A DNA stretch of 40,032 nucleotides from a phage: the sequence record PZ490076.1; one strand, given 5' to 3'. The notes beneath the pieces were generated by a model. It was not told where the DNA came from, ran no database searches, and saw only the letters and a program-made list of their open reading frames with translations. The position numbers and the translations under genes were made by a program. This document shows, piece after piece, positions 16,598 through 21,902 of the stretch. How positions within the stretch are numbered: the stretch's first letter is position 1; every line of letters starts with the position of its first letter.

Positions 16598-18955
16598 TTA
16601 GACTGAACGAGCTTTCTTAGCGTATGATGCCTCCCAGCCACACCCAACGATGGACACTGGGGTAGGATAGTCGGACTCTAAGGTTAGACTCGTGGTTAAT
16701 GCGTTACCATTCATAGCGAAGCGATACTGCCCGTCACCAATGTTTGTAGTACCGATGGTTTGCTGACCAATGGTGTACCCGTTGAAGGTATTCACGAACT
16801 CCCGCTCACCGTTTCTGACAATGAGTCTCAGAGCGCCAGTGTCTTTGTAGTTGACCCAAGCCCGACGAAGCTGTAGACGACCAGTGTCTTCAGACTGAGT
16901 GCCACTATCATCTTCAATCTTAATCAGGAACCGTGAGAACTTGTAGGACATCAGATAGGGCCGTCCGATGAACACTGTACGTCCTGACCAATCGCCGTTG
17001 AGGGTAATCACAGTAGAGATACTGGTCAAGTCCCCAAGGTCCACATAAGCACCCTGACTGTCAATCAGATAGTACCGACCGGGAGACGGAGCGTTGCCAC
17101 CATAAGCAGCACCAATGTCAACCGTAGTCTTATAGGTGTCAGCATTATATGAGCCAATTGGAATTACCATAGACACCTTGGAGTCAATGTGTAGTCTATA
17201 TGGCTCTGACGGGAAGTCAGTTGCCTCCTTGATGAACTTAAGGTGCTCAATGTCTACCCCTCCTTGATGCTGCCGAACGATGAACATGGTAGAGCCAATA
17301 GAAGCAGACGCCAGAATCTTATCAGCTTTAGGGAACTCCCAGTGCGACCAAGAGGCTTGAAGCTGTACGCCGTCCTTAAACAAGAACTTGTAGATGTAGA
17401 TACGGTTGTATGCACCTGTAGAGTTGACGCAGATGTAGTTCTCAGTCCCTGTACCTTGAATATCAAACACCCCGTTAGGGATGTAGGACAATACGTGACC
17501 GGTTGTATCATCAGCATCCTTCACATCAGACTCATCAGCTACAGCGAAGTATCGCTTAATGCTGGTGAATGACCCACGAGGAGCTGAGAAGAAGACTGAG
17601 CGTCCTACAGCGAACGGTCTGGCATTGTCGCCTAAGGCAAACTCTGAGCCTACATCAAGCTGGATAGACTTCGAGGTAAGGACCCCAGAGCTTGTCATCA
17701 CGAACTGAACCTCATCCGACCAAAGTAGTAGCTGCTCGCTAAACGGAACGGCATACTTAAGGATTGAGATTCGAGGGTGACTCACAGCTACATCAATAGG
17801 GTCAGCATCACTCAGTGTCGCCACACTCTTAGGGAAGAACGAAAAGTAGCTGGCTGAACGGCTCATGATTACGTTCTCACCCGACAAGAACCCAAGTCTG
17901 TTCCTGTAGAAGAACACATCATTAATCGCAGCATCCACGAAGCTAGGCATAGGGTTTGTGTCATCGTTACCAGAACCACGCTTGGACCAATCCAGAGTCT
18001 TGAACTCAAAGGAGCCGTCAGACTGTCTTACCAGAGCATGTGGCATTGTGGTGTTATCGAACCCAGTGACAACTCCCGGCTCCACTGTCTCCTTCCACGT
18101 CTTAGTGTTGGAGTCATACATCACGTAGTATTCATCGGCGCTACTGTTTGTTTCACCTTGAATCTTAATGATATACCCATTAGGAGCGGCAAGAGGTAGT
18201 TTAGAGATTGTCTGCACAGTGTCTAGGACTGGGCTTATTAGCTGGTTAGCGTAGCCATCCTCCGTCTCCACTGAGTTAATATCGGTCCCTGAAGGAGCTG
18301 TGATTAGCAGGAATCCAGACCCAAGGCCAAACGTGAAGGTAGGGTAGGCAGTAACAAGAAGGTCTCTCAGAGCTGCACCAATGGCTTGAGCGTCCACCTT
18401 AGGCGGGTCATTCTCGGCATCATTACCTGCTGGTAGCTTATGCGAGACCTTAACGCCACCGTTGATTCCCACCTTAAGGGTTCGACCATACTGTCCACCA
18501 CGCAGGTTAATTAAAGCTCGTGCTTTGCGGTTATAACCAGAGTGCGACTTCTCGCTTCCACCTTTGACGACAACCTTACGGTTAACGACGAACGTATAGT
18601 CTGCCACGGTAACGACACGGATGTCATCTCGTGGGTTGGAGGACTTAACGTAATCTACCGCACCTGACACTGAGTATTGATTACCACTCAAGTCAACTAC
18701 CTGAATGTTGGACCCATTGAACACGATGTAATACTGCTCATGCTCATCACGGTTAATCAGGTGGAACTTAGGGTTGCTCCCAACGTCGATGTTAAGACGT
18801 CGCTTGAAGACTGTAGGTGGACGCTTCTGGAGGCCATCACTCTCTGATGACCAGCAGTTAACCTGTGACTCGCCTTGGTCTGAGAACCTCAGTATGTCAG
18901 GCTGTTGGCTAATGCCACCCTTAAGGTTCTTGATTGATTGAGTAATTAGTGGCAT
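16598..18955 (-). CDS. Tail tubular protein B (T7 gp12 homolog), 785 aa
   Basis: N-terminus MPLITQSIKNLKGGISQQPDILRF matches T7 gp12 (MALISQSIKNLKGGISQQPDILRY). Confidence 0.95.
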   Translation of the reverse strand: MPLITQSIKNLKGGISQQPDILRFSDQGESQVNCWSSESDGLQKRPPTVFKRRLNIDVGSNPKFHLINRDEHEQYYIVFNGSNIQVVDLSGNQYSVSGAVDYVKSSNPRDDIRVVTVADYTFVVNRKVVVKGGSEKSHSGYNRKARALINLRGGQYGRTLKVGINGGVKVSHKLPAGNDAENDPPKVDAQAIGAALRDLLVTAYPTFTFGLGSGFLLITAPSGTDINSVETEDGYANQLISPVLDTVQTISKLPLAAPNGYIIKIQGETNSSADEYYVMYDSNTKTWKETVEPGVVTGFDNTTMPHALVRQSDGSFEFKTLDWSKRGSGNDDTNPMPSFVDAAINDVFFYRNRLGFLSGENVIMSRSASYFSFFPKSVATLSDADPIDVAVSHPRISILKYAVPFSEQLLLWSDEVQFVMTSSGVLTSKSIQLDVGSEFALGDNARPFAVGRSVFFSAPRGSFTSIKRYFAVADESDVKDADDTTGHVLSYIPNGVFDIQGTGTENYICVNSTGAYNRIYIYKFLFKDGVQLQASWSHWEFPKADKILASASIGSTMFIVRQHQGGVDIEHLKFIKEATDFPSEPYRLHIDSKVSMVIPIGSYNADTYKTTVDIGAAYGGNAPSPGRYYLIDSQGAYVDLGDLTSISTVITLNGDWSGRTVFIGRPYLMSYKFSRFLIKIEDDSGTQSEDTGRLQLRRAWVNYKDTGALRLIVRNGEREFVNTFNGYTIGQQTIGTTNIGDGQYRFAMNGNALTTSLTLESDYPTPVSIVGCGWEASYAKKARSV

Positions 18956-19521
18956 TAGTCTCTCCCAATGTCGGACATCATGTTGTAGCGACCAGTATCC
19001 ATCTCGTATTCCATGACCTGCTGATAGAGTTCTGCTTCCTGCTCACGAAGGTACAGTTCAGACTCTGGGCTACCGAAGAACTTAGCGTTGAACTCACGGC
19101 TAGCTTTAGTGACGATGTAGTCCCTGAAGACCACAGGCATCTCTGAGAATGGCTTCATCTCCACAAGCTCTACCGTGATAGGGTCGGTGAAAGTGGTCGA
19201 CTGAGTGGACAGGTCGTACAGGTATCCACCCATGTTGCTGTAGTAGCTGGTGGCCCCAGCGGTCATTACACGAAGGTATGACGGCAAGAATCGAATCCTA
19301 TTGTCTTGGACATCAGGTGTCAGGACAGCAGCTTCATTGATGTTAAAGTTCCAGCCTTTAGCTTGGATCTGACGATTGACACGATGCAGGATACGTTGGG
19401 CGTTCGAGACGTCAGCGTTCCCCTCGTCAAGCTGTAGGACTGCCGGTTCACCGATAGCAGCTAACATATCGTTGATAGCGTCTAAGTCATCGTTAGCATT
19501 CAGTGGAATGTATTGAGCCAT
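18955..19521 (-). CDS. Tail tubular protein A (T7 gp11 homolog), 188 aa from the corrected start
   Basis: Similarity to T7 gp11 (VNRQIQAKGWNFNI, YEMDTGRYNM); start placed at MAQYIPL with GGAGGGAG RBS rather than the upstream track start at 19551. Confidence 0.9.
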   Translation of the reverse strand: MAQYIPLNANDDLDAINDMLAAIGEPAVLQLDEGNADVSNAQRILHRVNRQIQAKGWNFNINEAAVLTPDVQDNRIRFLPSYLRVMTAGATSYYSNMGGYLYDLSTQSTTFTDPITVELVEMKPFSEMPVVFRDYIVTKASREFNAKFFGSPESELYLREQEAELYQQVMEYEMDTGRYNMMSDIGRD

Positions 19522-19637
19522 ACTCCCTCCTATCTGTCGTAAGGACTGCATGGTCCGGTTAATAATATAATCGCCCAGAAACTAACAAATAGTCCCAAGG
19601 CTGTAAGTAAGTAAAACATAATCATCCTCACTTTAAG

Positions 19638-19677
19638 CAAAAAACCCCTCAAGCACCCGAAGGCACCCAAGGGGTTT
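19638..19677 (-). terminator. Tphi-like intrinsic terminator immediately after the capsid 10B stop
   Basis: Minus strand AACCCCTTGGGTGCCTTCGGGTGCTTGAGGGGTTTTTTG: GC-rich hairpin plus T6; closely resembles T7 Tphi (..CCCCTTGGGGCC...GGGTCTTGAGGGGTTTTTTG). Confidence 0.8.
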
Positions 19678-19680
19678 CAA

Positions 19681-20855
19681 TTAGTTGTTGGACTCAGCCA
19701 GTTTAGCGGCCCTGTTCGCAGCACGAGTACGCGCAGCTTTCTGTTGAGGAGTTAGAGTCTCCTCTTCAGGTGCAGCCTCTACTGTAGCGACGTTAGGTTG
19801 GCTAAAGGTGCTTACGTCGCTAGGCTGAAAACCAGTGCGCCAGCCGCTTCAGGACGCAGACCGCCGTGACCCATAGCGTATTTACCAACAATCAGGTCGC
19901 CCTGAGCATCGACGTCACGGTCACGTTCCAGCGCCAAGTCACGCAGCTTCACAGTACCCACAGCAGAACGGTGAGAGAACAGACCCACGACGTTGTTAAT
20001 AGCGACTTTAACGTCGCCAGTAGCAGTCGCCGGGAATGCGTGTTTCTGACCTGAAGCGATAGTGATACCGTCTTCACCACGGGTCGCACCAGCACCACCC
20101 TGTACCAGATGCGGAACTTCAACAACAACGAAGCCCATCACGTTACGGATGTTACCAGTCTCTGGGTCAATCAGCGCAGCATAGTTAGCAGCGTTCGGCA
20201 TCAGAGCAGCGAGGATCGCAGAGTAGTTGTCAGGCGTGGTGTAGAAGTAACGGTCGCCAGCAGGAACGTAGTTGGAGGTCAGCTGCGCACGAGCAATGGT
20301 CAGTTGACCAATGATTGCTTCACCCAGTTTAGCCGGGGTGTCGAGGTCAGCTTTCTTACCAACTTGCAGTACGGAAGCAGTACCAAGACCAGCGATGTTC
20401 TCGTTGGATGCAGCCGGGAGGTTACACAGGATCGCAATTTCAGCCAGCACCGCACCATCAGCAGCGATAGCCAGAGCTTCGCCCAACTGGTTGGAATACT
20501 CGCCAGCAACGTCATAGTGGTTCATCGCGTCTTCAATGTCGAAAATCATCACATCGGCAGTCAGCAGGCCATCAATGGTAATATTTTTCTCGGTATGTTT
20601 GATACCTTTACGCTTATCGGACAGTCGCTCACCCGGAGCCAGATACACACCAGAGGTGCGACCCATGACCGGGAACTGAGCAGACTTACCGTTCTGAATG
20701 GTACGGACAATATGCTTGTCAGCAGTTACAGAGCGGCGAGTGAATGCTGTCAGGACTTCGCCAGCAAAGACCTTCAGGAACAACGCCAGAGCGTCGGAAC
20801 CAGATTTGCCTTTGCCTTGGTCTGTACCTACTTTCTGACCCGGAACGTTTGCCAT
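19681..20855 (-). CDS. Minor capsid protein 10B, predicted product of -1 ribosomal frameshifting at GGTTTTC near the end of 10A (adds about 44 aa)
   Basis: Slippery heptamer G GTT TTC at 19827-19833, 4 codons before the 10A stop; the -1 frame stays open for 44 codons to TAA at 19681-19683, immediately followed by the Tphi-like terminator; same arrangement as T7 10A/10B. Confidence 0.65.
19812..20855 (-). CDS. Major capsid protein 10A (T7 gp10A homolog), 347 aa
   Basis: High similarity to T7 gp10A throughout (ALFLKVF.GEVLTAF, GKSAQFPV, KHTEK.ITIDGLLTADV, AALMPNAANYAALIDPE, HRSAVGTVKLRDLALER, KYAMGHGGLRPEAAG). Confidence 0.97.
   Translation of the reverse strand: MANVPGQKVGTDQGKGKSGSDALALFLKVFAGEVLTAFTRRSVTADKHIVRTIQNGKSAQFPVMGRTSGVYLAPGERLSDKRKGIKHTEKNITIDGLLTADVMIFDIEDAMNHYDVAGEYSNQLGEALAIAADGAVLAEIAILCNLPAASNENIAGLGTASVLQVGKKADLDTPAKLGEAIIGQLTIARAQLTSNYVPAGDRYFYTTPDNYSAILAALMPNAANYAALIDPETGNIRNVMGFVVVEVPHLVQGGAGATRGEDGITIASGQKHAFPATATGDVKVAINNVVGLFSHRSAVGTVKLRDLALERDRDVDAQGDLIVGKYAMGHGGLRPEAAGALVFSLAT
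19827..19833 (-). other. Programmed -1 frameshift slippery site (GGTTTTC) in the capsid gene
   Basis: Seen in sequence; matches the T7 gene 10 frameshift heptamer as recalled. Confidence 0.6.
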
Positions 20856-20981: not shown

Positions 20982-21902
20982 CTACAGGCTTGAGGCAGCT
21001 ACCTTAGCGCGAACTTCCATCGTGTACTTAGCGTCACGCAGGTATCGCGGGTCACTCATAGCCTTAATCATGTCAGCCTTGGAGCTGAATGCTTCGGTCT
21101 GAGGAGCCTTAGGTGCGACCACAGGTTTAGCCTGAGTGGTGATGGTACGCTGAGGTTTAACACCCACAGCTTTACCCAGAGTCTTGCCAGCCAGATTCAG
21201 CAGAGCTTTGGTAGTCGCAATGTCCTTACGAACGATGGCAGCTTCCAATGCTTCACGAGTTGACGGGTCGTTGGACTCAAGGTGTGACAGGATGCGATTA
21301 AACTGTTCAGCACCACCAGCGTAGCGAACCACACCAGCAGCATACTGTTCAGCCAGAGCTTCCTGACCACGTACAAACGAATCTACGAAACGCTTGGTGT
21401 AACCTGCTTCCTGCAACTTAGCGTAGGATGCGTCAGACAGCTTACCGTCCTTGGCGTATTCAGCCTTGATAGCGGTAATTTCATCAGCAGTGACCTTGCC
21501 AGCTTCTACAGCAGAAGACACCATGTCGTCGAATGCAGCTTCGTTTTCATCAAGAGCGGTGACACTTTCAGTCAGCTCTTTCGGTGCATCACCTAGTTCG
21601 ATGAACTCAGGCTGCTCACCATCGGTCTCAGACTCTTCGCCCTCTGACTCGCGGTCTTCATCACCCTCAGTCTCTTCGACGTTCTCGTCTTCTTCGGTAG
21701 CCTCTTCGTTTTCGGCTTCCAGTTGCTTGAAGGTAATAGCGTCATCGCCATCACGAACAGCTACGTCCTGTTCAAGCATAGACTTCTGGTGTTCGTTCAG
21801 GTCCTCAACGGAACCAGTGATTGCATTAGAGCTAACGCCGAACTCGGCATAAACTGATTGAGACATTGAGTCATTCTCCTTTAAGTCGTTAATAGGCAAC
21901 AC
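20982..21902 (-). CDS. Capsid assembly (scaffolding) protein (T7 gp9 homolog), 306 aa
   Basis: Highly acidic, Glu/Asp-rich protein immediately upstream of the capsid gene, size as T7 gp9 (307 aa). Confidence 0.9.
   Translation of the reverse strand: MLPINDLKENDSMSQSVYAEFGVSSNAITGSVEDLNEHQKSMLEQDVAVRDGDDAITFKQLEAENEEATEEDENVEETEGDEDRESEGEESETDGEQPEFIELGDAPKELTESVTALDENEAAFDDMVSSAVEAGKVTADEITAIKAEYAKDGKLSDASYAKLQEAGYTKRFVDSFVRGQEALAEQYAAGVVRYAGGAEQFNRILSHLESNDPSTREALEAAIVRKDIATTKALLNLAGKTLGKAVGVKPQRTITTQAKPVVAPKAPQTEAFSSKADMIKAMSDPRYLRDAKYTMEVRAKVAASSL

What the first reader, a model, noticed from the sequence alone, without database searches (positions are those of the whole stretch)
19681..19840. 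Programmed -1 frameshift producing an extended capsid protein (10B)
The heptamer GGTTTTC lies 4 codons before the 10A stop. In the -1 frame the reading frame continues for 44 codons (QPSDVSTFSQPNVATVEAAPEEETLTPQQKAARTRAANRAAKLAESNN) and ends exactly at the Tphi-like terminator hairpin. The heptamer and position match the T7 10A/10B arrangement, so the capsid probably contains a minor C-terminally extended species.
Basis: partly seen in the sequence, partly recalled or inferred. Interest (0 to 1): 0.45.

Follow-up and report, generated by a model that had tools for sequence, protein, structure and literature searches.

The report
Capsid gene frameshift making minor capsid protein
The capsid gene of this T7-like (K1F-type) coliphage carries the same slippery sequence as phage T7, which lets some ribosomes slip back one base and add a 44-residue tail to the coat protein; this is real but already described for phage K1F and T7, so it is ordinary.

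Summary
The window is a Kayfunavirus, 99.9% identical to Escherichia phage BUCT788. Its capsid gene 10A (20855..19812, 347 aa) contains the only GGTTTTC in the 40 kb. It lies in the T7 phase (G GTT TTC, 19833..19827), four codons before the stop. The -1 frame then runs 48 codons, a net gain of 44 (391 aa, about 40.9 kDa). It stops 3 nt before a Tphi-like terminator.

This is not chance. P is about 0.01 for the open frame. The tail is homologous to T7 10B. pN/pS is 0.16-0.47 in the -1 frame and above 1 in the other two frames. The three synonymous sites of the heptamer are invariant in 29 distinct relatives. Relatives that encode the same residues without the heptamer use four Val, three Leu and two Phe codons.

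Published work on K1F (95% identical here) describes this -1 frameshift "adding 44 triplets". That work fused GFP and adhesins to gene10b and displayed them on virions. GenBank records of this genus that I examined do not annotate the join. A candidate stimulatory hairpin 5 nt downstream remains unproven.

The parts
19812..20855 (-). Gene 10A, major capsid protein, 347 aa including its TAA stop (19814..19812)
   Evidence: ORF list. Pfam Gp10A-like E=5e-103. 100% identical to the 'major head protein' CDS of phage BUCT788.
19827..19833 (-). Slippery heptamer G GTT TTC (Val342-Phe343), site of the -1 shift
   Evidence: Only copy in the window, and in phase. Same heptamer and phase as T7 and K1F. 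L3/V3/F3 synonymous sites are invariant in 29 distinct heptamer-bearing relatives. Named as the T7 shift site in PMC5009743 and PMC1635266.
19681..19827 (-). 10B-specific coding sequence in the -1 frame: 48 codons (QPSDV...AESNN) plus TAA at 19683..19681. The -1 frame is open from 19848.
   Evidence: Translation. No ATG/GTG/TTG in this frame: no ORF of 30 aa or more is listed here on the minus strand. PHROG 12582 'head protein' 4.4e-12.
19693..19764 (-). Conserved block of the tail, EETLTPQQKAARTRAANRAAKLAE, shared with T7 10B. Most of it is predicted as a single basic alpha-helix.
   Evidence: pN/pS 0.16-0.47 in the -1 frame against 1.2-3.3 in the other frames, versus L010, L033 and T7. AlphaFold2 single-sequence model: helix at residues 29-49 of the 50-aa peptide, block pLDDT 87-91; the first 28 residues have no secondary structure.
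19786..19821 (-). Candidate frameshift-stimulating hairpin. 8-bp stem AGCGACGU (19821..19814) / ACGUCGCU (19793..19786), 20-nt loop, 5-nt spacer after the heptamer. The 10A stop lies in the stem/loop junction.
   Evidence: Present in the MFE of the 57-nt and 211-nt folds. 98.6% of cells paired in 9 distinct K1F-type sequences, with one-sided changes only (A-U to G-U, C-G to U-G) and no compensatory pair. Not significant on its own (z=-1.7). Unproven.
19639..19677 (-). Tphi-like intrinsic terminator: hairpin AAACCCCUUGGGUGCC-UUCG-GGUGCUUGAGGGGUUU plus T-run. The CCCC at 19674..19671 is the counterpart of the T7 element reported to influence gene 10 frameshifting.
   Evidence: Fold. The terminator scan found the inner part of the stem plus the T-run. 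Aligned with T7 Tphi, which is annotated in NC_001604. Role of CCCC in T7: PMC5009743.

Best explanation
This is the Kayfunavirus orthologue of the T7 gene 10A/10B programmed -1 ribosomal frameshift.

Most ribosomes decode ...Leu-Val-Phe-Ser-Leu-Ala-Thr-stop and make the 347-aa major capsid protein. A minority slip back one base, with tRNA-Val on GUU in the P site and tRNA-Phe on UUC in the A site (G GUU UUC becomes GGU UUU). They then read CAG CCU AGC... for 48 codons and stop 3 nt before the late terminator. The product is a 391-aa minor capsid protein, 10B, which co-assembles into the head.

Its extra 48 residues are a flexible Pro/Ser/Thr/Glu-rich linker followed by one conserved basic helix, most likely exposed on the capsid surface.

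What is shown here: the site, its phase, the open frame, homology to T7 10B, purifying selection in the -1 frame, and synonymous-site conservation of the heptamer.

What is taken from the literature on close relatives: the product is made and built into virions (K1F g10b fusions), a -1 shift occurs at TTTTC (Kvp1 mass spectrometry), and T7 gives about 10% 10B in native context but under 1% with the bare heptamer.

What is inferred: production and level in this phage, which 3' element stimulates the shift (the local 8-bp hairpin and/or the terminator CCCC), and the function of the tail.
For: - Heptamer unique in the window and in phase.
- Identical heptamer and phase in T7, whose record carries a joined 10B CDS.
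- The -1 frame is open for 55 codons; P(48 open) is about 0.01, and 0.2% of -1 runs are this long.
- The tail is homologous to T7 10B, with pN/pS 0.16-0.47 in the -1 frame against more than 1 in both other frames. pS of 0.63-0.92 shows synonymous sites are near saturation while the residues are kept.
- In 29 distinct relatives with the heptamer (capsid identity 70-100%), CTG/GTG-GTT-TTC never varies at the three relevant third positions, although neighbouring Ala/Gly/Pro/Arg codons do. In 26 relatives with the same residues but no heptamer, Val uses 4 codons, Leu 3 and Phe 2.
- A -1 ORF of 40 codons or more follows 28 of 29 heptamer-bearing sequences and 12 of 26 others (Fisher p=3e-5, not corrected for phylogeny). 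Seven of those 12 carry other candidate shift sites: C GTT TTC, G GTT TTT or A AAG.
- Literature: K1F gene 10 '-1 translational frameshift... addition of 44 triplets', and g10b::gfp gives stable fluorescent phage (PMC6277420). Adhesins displayed on K1F gene10b (PMC13370021). Kvp1 10B proven by MS (PMC2579914). T7 site G_GU U_UUC (PMC5009743). About 10% in T7 (PMC1635266).
Against: - There is no direct protein evidence for this phage.
- None of the Kayfunavirus records I examined annotates a joined 10B CDS.
- One close relative, L009 (a 39,300-bp IMG/VR contig, probably phage vB_EcoP_F), keeps the heptamer but has a 1-nt deletion that truncates the tail. This is either a sequencing error or a sign the tail is dispensable.
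- Within the closely related K1F-type group there are too few substitutions to show codon-position bias: 13 variable sites, 3:4:6.
- The bare heptamer gives under 1% shifting in T7 constructs, so the level here depends on stimulators I could not verify.
- The local hairpin has no compensatory changes and is absent from the MFE of K1F itself.
Confidence: 0.9

Rival explanations
1. The frameshift happens, but only at a low level set by the heptamer alone. The tail is a dispensable passenger rather than a selected function.
For: The bare T7 heptamer gives under 1% (PMC1635266). L009 (probably vB_EcoP_F) has the tail knocked out of frame by a 1-nt deletion. Relatives with non-slippery codons and no extension exist. 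The local hairpin is not statistically supported.
Against: Purifying selection acts on the tail in the -1 frame across lineages as far apart as T7. The three synonymous positions of the heptamer are strictly conserved in 29 distinct sequences. The -1 ORF is kept open in 28 of 29 heptamer-bearing sequences, even where the extension module differs.
Confidence: 0.07
2. The extended protein arises from transcriptional slippage by the phage RNA polymerase on the T-run, giving mRNAs with one base missing, and not from ribosomal slippage.
For: The outcome would be the same 10B protein. Sequence analysis alone cannot tell the two mechanisms apart.
Against: The run is only four T. By established knowledge, polymerase slippage needs homopolymer runs of roughly 7-9 or more. 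In T7 the same heptamer is treated as a ribosomal shift site (PMC5009743). Conservation extends to the G upstream and the C downstream of the T-run, that is, to the codon-anticodon re-pairing pattern and not merely run length.
Confidence: 0.02
3. The -1 ORF is translated separately as a small protein, or is not translated at all. The heptamer is then a by-product of coding Leu-Val-Phe, and the open frame is chance or a constraint from RNA or the terminator.
For: Automated annotation sometimes calls such tails as separate small 'head' or 'minor capsid' ORFs: PHROG 12582 and 20538, and a 77-aa 'minor capsid' ORF in phage SH2 (PMC4925675).
Against: The 55-codon -1 frame contains no ATG, GTG or TTG, and no ORF of 30 aa or more is listed there (sequence). 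pN/pS is below 0.5 only in the -1 frame. The same residues are encoded by non-slippery codons in relatives that lack an extension. P(open frame) is about 0.01.
Confidence: 0.01

Closest known systems
Phage K1F gene 10 / gene10b (type species of Kayfunavirus)
   Same: Orthologous. About 95% nucleotide identity over the capsid region. Same heptamer at the same distance (19 nt) from the stop. Same 44 extra codons. A near-identical tail (QPSGVSTFSQPNVATVAAAPEEETLTPQQKAARTRAANRADKLAESNN) and the same terminator. The frameshift and the minor capsid protein are described and used for display in PMC6277420 and PMC13370021.
   Different: Four amino-acid differences in the tail, and a different 10A C-terminus (SLAT against SPAE). 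The window has a perfect 8-9-bp local stem where K1F has a mismatch. The window also has an extra small ORF between the terminator and gene 11 that K1F lacks.
Phage T7 gene 10A/10B -1 frameshift (Condron, Atkins and Gesteland 1991)
   Same: Same heptamer and phase, 3-4 codons before the 10A stop. Homologous C-terminal block (EETLTPaQeAARTRAANkA). The extension ends just before Tphi, whose CCCC is present in both (PMC5009743).
   Different: The T7 tail is 57 codons after the shift (53 beyond the stop), with a different, longer linker and C-terminus. Capsid identity is 70%. The shift-site-to-CCCC distance is about 150 nt here, against roughly 180 nt by my count in T7; the review says 'over 200'. 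The sequence just 3' of the heptamer is unrelated.
Kluyvera phage Kvp1 10A/10B
   Same: A -1 shift at TTTTC(A) on a Phe codon, proven by mass spectrometry of the 43.6-kDa band (PMC2579914).
   Different: A different genus. The Kvp1 sequence was not examined here.
T3 / phiYeO3-12-type capsid frameshift with Ig-like extension
   Same: A -1 frameshift near the 3' end of the homologous capsid gene produces a C-terminally extended minor capsid protein.
   Different: The shift occurs at lysyl codons. N NNA AAG sites sit two codons before the stop in the relatives I examined (PMC2579914). The extension is a Big_2 Ig-like domain of about 88 codons (Pfam 5.8e-15; PMC5009743). The window has neither.

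Membership tests
T7-type gene 10A/10B programmed -1 ribosomal frameshift | The host gene is the T7-family major capsid protein (gp10A). | tested here: met
   Pfam PF21703 Gp10A-like, E=5e-103, profile positions 1-279 of 279. 70% identity to T7 10A.
T7-type gene 10A/10B programmed -1 ribosomal frameshift | The heptamer G GUU UUC lies in the zero-frame phase X XXY YYZ, a few codons before the 10A stop. | tested here: met
   19833..19827 (-), in phase, 19 nt before the stop codon; T7 has 16 nt.
T7-type gene 10A/10B programmed -1 ribosomal frameshift | The -1 frame is open past the 10A stop and encodes a tail homologous to T7 10B. | tested here: met
   48 codons after the shift. Conserved block EETLTPxQxAARTRAAN aligned with T7, L010 and L033. 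PHROG 12582 4.4e-12.
T7-type gene 10A/10B programmed -1 ribosomal frameshift | The tail evolves as protein-coding sequence in the -1 frame. | tested here: met
   NG86 pN/pS of 0.25, 0.47 and 0.16 (-1 frame) against 3.3/1.6/2.3 and 1.7/1.2/1.7 in the other frames. Underpowered within the close K1F-type group.
T7-type gene 10A/10B programmed -1 ribosomal frameshift | The slippery site is conserved beyond what the amino-acid sequence requires. | tested here: met
   Third positions of Leu/Val/Phe are invariant in 29 distinct heptamer-bearing relatives. Relatives with the same residues but no heptamer use 3/4/2 codons.
T7-type gene 10A/10B programmed -1 ribosomal frameshift | A distal 3' stimulator: CCCC in the Tphi terminator downstream of the extension. 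| tested here: inconclusive
   The Tphi-like hairpin with CCCC is present at 19674..19671. Its effect on shifting cannot be tested computationally. L010 has CCC only.
T7-type gene 10A/10B programmed -1 ribosomal frameshift | A 10B protein is made (about 10% in T7) and incorporated into virions. | not testable with these tools
   Shown for relatives only: K1F g10b::gfp virions (PMC6277420), Kvp1 MS (PMC2579914), T7 about 10% (PMC1635266).
T3-type capsid frameshift with Ig-like extension | A shift at a lysyl A AAG site, and a Big_2 / Ig-like domain in the extension. | tested here: not met
   No A AAG site in the last 20 codons of the window's 10A. No Pfam domain in the tail. The model shows a linker plus one helix.
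dnaX-type -1 frameshift cassette (upstream Shine-Dalgarno plus close 3' stem-loop) | An SD-like element about 10 nt upstream and a stable stem-loop 5-9 nt downstream of the shift site. | tested here: inconclusive
   No GGAGG/AGGA/GAGG in the 20 nt upstream (GAAGCGGCTGGCGCACTG). An 8-bp hairpin sits 5 nt downstream. It is 98.6% paired in 9 sequences but has no compensatory changes and z=-1.7.

The most novel reading that the evidence does not exclude
[quoted passage not shown] Behind it, unrelated surface modules have been exchanged by recombination. Four module types were seen:
- the T7-type linker plus basic helix, as in this window;
- an 88-codon domain of PHROG 7473 with no Pfam match, in other Kayfunaviruses;
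- a Big_2 domain, in L028;
- behind a G GUU UUU variant, an extension of at least 399 codons.

In the K1F-type lineage the stimulator would be a local 8-bp hairpin 5 nt downstream, rather than or in addition to the unexplained distal terminator element of T7. If so, Kayfunaviruses would give a simpler system for solving the long-standing T7 long-range stimulation puzzle.
Probability: 0.3. Interest if true: 0.35.

Novelty: already known. Interest (0 to 1): 0.12.

Why it matters
The main value is for annotation. The GenBank record of this phage (BUCT788) and the other Kayfunavirus records I examined list only the 347-aa capsid CDS. Some call that CDS 'minor capsid protein'. None carries the joined 10B CDS, although the frameshift is conserved, under selection, and already exploited experimentally in K1F as a low-copy display site.

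For phage engineering, the data indicate that this phage should tolerate C-terminal fusions at 19684 (just before the 10B stop), as K1F does. The comparative series of heptamer-bearing and synonymous non-slippery relatives, with swapped extension modules, is a useful natural data set on how capsid decoration modules are acquired. It does not change what is known about the mechanism.

Tried and rejected
- tblastn of the 53-aa junction-plus-tail peptide against the phage collection found nothing. The likely cause is the low-complexity filter on a short Ala/Glu-rich query. I replaced it with direct comparison of fetched loci.
- Pfam has no family for the tail. Rfam has no family in 19500..20000.
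- The primary Condron 1991 papers and Sipley 1991 are not held. The T7 stimulator facts therefore rest on the 2016 review.
- The 'minor capsid protein' labels in several records looked like existing 10B annotation. They are in fact the plain 1044-nt CDS.
- The codon-position test within the close K1F-type group is underpowered: 13 variable sites.
- I compared fold z-scores of the 70 nt after the shift site between heptamer and non-heptamer relatives. The comparison is confounded, because in relatives without an extension the terminator hairpin falls inside the window. It was discarded as a test.
- A long-range helix in the 211-nt MFE pairs the slippery region with GGCUGAG near the 10B stop. 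I considered it and set it aside. It includes the shift site itself, and GCUGC-type motifs are frequent in this Ala-rich region.
- Separate initiation of the tail was rejected because the frame has no start codon.

Full report
**What the window is.** The window is a T7-like podovirus genome read on the reverse strand. A 25-kb stretch is 99.9% identical to Escherichia phage BUCT788 (PV540240), and the next-best matches are K1F-like phages, genus Kayfunavirus. The genes around the finding lie on the minus strand:
- scaffold protein, 21902..20982;
- major capsid protein, 20855..19812 (347 aa; Pfam Gp10A-like, E=5e-103);
- tail tubular proteins gp11 and gp12 downstream.

**The observation.** On the minus strand the capsid gene ends ...GCA CTG GTT TTC AGC CTA GCG ACG TAA.
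- The heptamer GGTTTTC occupies 19833..19827 in the phase G GTT TTC, four codons before the stop.
- From the C of TTC the -1 frame reads QPSDVSTFSQPNVATVEAAPEEETLTPQQKAARTRAANRAAKLAESNN. That is 48 codons, 44 of them beyond the 10A stop, and it ends at TAA 19683..19681.
- The predicted 10B is 391 aa / 40.9 kDa, against 347 aa / 36.2 kDa for 10A.
- Three bases later a long hairpin (AAACCCCUUGGGUGCC-UUCG-GGUGCUUGAGGGGUUU) and a T-run form a terminator that aligns with T7 Tphi.
Two points need clarifying: the feature is on the minus strand, and '44' is the net gain while the quoted peptide has 48 residues.

**Is it more than chance?**
- GGTTTTC occurs exactly once on both strands of the 40-kb window together, where about 2.2 per strand are expected from composition. 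[quoted passage not shown]
- In the -1 frame of the window's own long genes, 9.1% of codons are stops. Forty-eight open codons therefore have P of about 0.01. Only 0.2% of -1 open runs reach the 55 codons seen here.
- The frame contains no ATG, GTG or TTG, so it cannot be an independent gene.

**Comparative evidence.** I fetched T7, K1F, four other annotated phages and 78 IMG/VR loci encoding related capsid proteins. Four classes appear:
- (i) G GTT TTC followed by a short T7-type tail of 42-53 codons: the window, K1F, P7124, PRF-SP2, T7, L010, L033 and others.
- (ii) G GTT TTC followed by a domain of about 88 codons. In other Kayfunaviruses this is PHROG 7473, with no Pfam match. In L028 it is Big_2.
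- (iii) N NNA AAG two codons before the stop, followed by a Big_2 Ig-like domain. This is the T3-type 'lysyl' shift noted in PMC2579914 and PMC5009743.
- (iv) The same Leu-Val-Phe residues encoded by GTC/GTA/GTG TTC, with no conserved extension and the terminator directly after the stop.

Among sequences that keep the (L/V)VF residues, a -1 ORF of 40 codons or more follows 28 of 29 heptamer-bearing sequences and 12 of 26 without the heptamer (Fisher p=3e-5, not corrected for phylogeny). Seven of those 12 carry another candidate shift site.

In the 29 distinct heptamer-bearing sequences, whose capsid identity to the window ranges from 70 to 100%, the third positions of the Leu, Val and Phe codons never vary. 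The third positions of the preceding Arg, Pro, Ala, Ala, Gly and Ala codons do vary. In the 26 sequences without the heptamer, Val uses four codons, Leu three and Phe two. This is the signature of selection on the nucleotide sequence of the shift site.

**The tail is coding in the -1 frame.** I compared the conserved block (EETLTPQQKAARTRAANRAAKLAE in the window) with L010, L033 and T7.
- pN/pS was 0.25, 0.47 and 0.16 in the -1 frame.
- pN/pS was 1.2-3.3 in the other two frames of the same nucleotides.
- pS was 0.63-0.92, so synonymous sites are close to saturation while the residues are kept.
- The tail matches PHROG 12582 'head protein' at E=4.4e-12.
- A single-sequence AlphaFold2 model gives an unstructured first 28 residues and one helix over residues 29-49 (block pLDDT 87-91). 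The helix coincides with the conserved block.
- Within the closely related K1F-type group there is too little variation for a codon-position test.

**Mechanism.** The most likely mechanism is the T7 one. It is a tandem -1 slip with tRNA-Val and tRNA-Phe re-pairing from GUU UUC to GGU UUU. The review PMC5009743 lists G_GU as the X_XX part of the T7 gene 10 site.

In T7 about 10% of translations give 10B, but the bare heptamer in front of a foreign sequence gives under 1% (PMC1635266). A CCCC in the Tphi terminator contributes in an unexplained long-range way (PMC5009743). The window has the corresponding CCCC at 19674..19671, about 150 nt from the shift site.

The window also has an 8-bp hairpin, AGCGACGU/ACGUCGCU with a 20-nt loop, beginning 5 nt after the heptamer. 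That is the usual spacing for a stimulatory structure.
- Across nine distinct K1F-type sequences it is 98.6% paired.
- The 5' arm varies only by changes that give G-U pairs, with one mismatch in K1F.
- There are no compensatory double changes.
- The hairpin alone is not more stable than shuffled sequence (z=-1.7).
- Hairpins starting 4-6 nt after the heptamer are also predicted in T7, L010/L033 and the long-extension Kayfunaviruses. My control comparison was confounded by the terminator.

I therefore list the hairpin as a candidate only.

**Rivals.**
- Transcriptional slippage is unlikely on a run of four T. It also would not explain conservation of the flanking G and C.
- Separate translation of the tail is excluded by the lack of a start codon.
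- 'Real but neutral' is contradicted by the selection signals. It draws some support from L009, a 39,300-bp IMG/VR contig that is probably phage vB_EcoP_F. There a 1-nt deletion in the 10A TAA moves the tail to the +1 frame while leaving it otherwise intact. This is either a recent loss or a sequencing error.

**Comparison with what is known.** This is not new.
[quoted passage not shown] K1F is about 95% identical here, with the same heptamer, spacing and tail length.
- In that paper, GFP fused to the end of gene10b gave stable fluorescent phage, whereas a fusion to the 10A end, which interrupts 10B, could not be isolated.
- PMC13370021 (2026) uses the same locus to display Ig-like adhesins on a subset of capsid subunits.
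- Kvp1 10B was proven by mass spectrometry.
- What is missing is annotation. The records for BUCT788, K1F (both records), P7124, PRF-SP2 and ASO2B list only the 1044-nt CDS. Some label it 'minor capsid protein' or '10A'.

**Verdict.** The feature is the already known T7/K1F 10A/10B frameshift in a new isolate. Interest is low. The residual value lies in correcting annotation and in the comparative picture of a conserved shift site followed by exchangeable capsid-surface modules.

Noticed in passing
window 19625..19530 (-): A small unannotated ORF lies between the Tphi-like terminator and gene 11: MIMFYLLTALGLFVSFWAIILLTGPCSPYDR, 29-31 aa, with one hydrophobic helix and GAGGA just upstream of the ATGs. 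It is present in BUCT788 (unannotated), L009, L010 (80%), L011 and L085 (52%), and absent from K1F, P7124 and PRF-SP2. No PHROG match.
   Followed up: partly
L009:2216-2285 (a 39,300-bp IMG/VR contig, probably phage vB_EcoP_F): The heptamer is intact, but a 1-nt deletion in the 10A stop (TAA to TAG) puts the otherwise intact 43-codon tail in the +1 frame. The -1 product would stop after 11 codons. This is either a sequencing error or a natural loss of the 10B tail.
   Followed up: partly
L013-L023, L070, L074, L075 (Kayfunavirus contigs), about 90 codons after the capsid stop: The same G GTT TTC heptamer is followed by an unrelated -1 extension of about 88 codons (...DVTDWSLLEVTTPDGVSYSRRTNSLYFKA...VRSFNVSFTN). 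It matches PHROG 7473 'unknown function' (1.9e-36) and no Pfam family. It is probably an unclassified beta-rich decoration domain.
   Followed up: partly
L044 and L056 (IMG/VR 3300034349_000001 and 3300034127_000003), downstream of the capsid stop: A G GTT TTT variant of the site is followed by a -1 ORF of at least 399 codons that runs off the locus. It comprises a Big_2 domain (5.4e-11) and then about 300 residues with no Pfam hit. By eye these carry GDS / GTNN / DGTH motifs reminiscent of SGNH hydrolases, suggesting a possible capsid-displayed enzyme made by frameshifting. The hydrolase idea was not tested.
   Followed up: no
L011 (IMG/VR 2974604219_000001), after the capsid stop: The 88-codon-type extension is truncated and fused in frame to the small hydrophobic ORF seen in the window (...EVTTPEWFFLLKVRMIMFYLLTALGLFVSFWAIILLTGPCSPYDR). 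The terminator appears to be deleted.
   Followed up: no
L026, L027 (IMG/VR): C GTT TTC (Leu encoded by CTC) precedes a 91-codon -1 extension of the PHROG 7473-like type. The first position of the heptamer is therefore not strictly required for keeping an extension.
   Followed up: no
L036, L042, L055 (IMG/VR): In relatives without a slippery site, the -1 frame after the capsid stop stays open through the terminator region into gene 11 (217-225 codons). This looks like coincidental frame continuity, and it shows that ORF length alone is a poor criterion.
   Followed up: no
window 19551..18955 (-): The mechanical ORF for gene 11 starts at an upstream ATG (MQSLRQIGGSMAQYIPL..., 198 aa). Homologues and the BUCT788 annotation start at MAQYIPL (19521; 188 aa), preceded by GGAGGGAG.
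   Followed up: no
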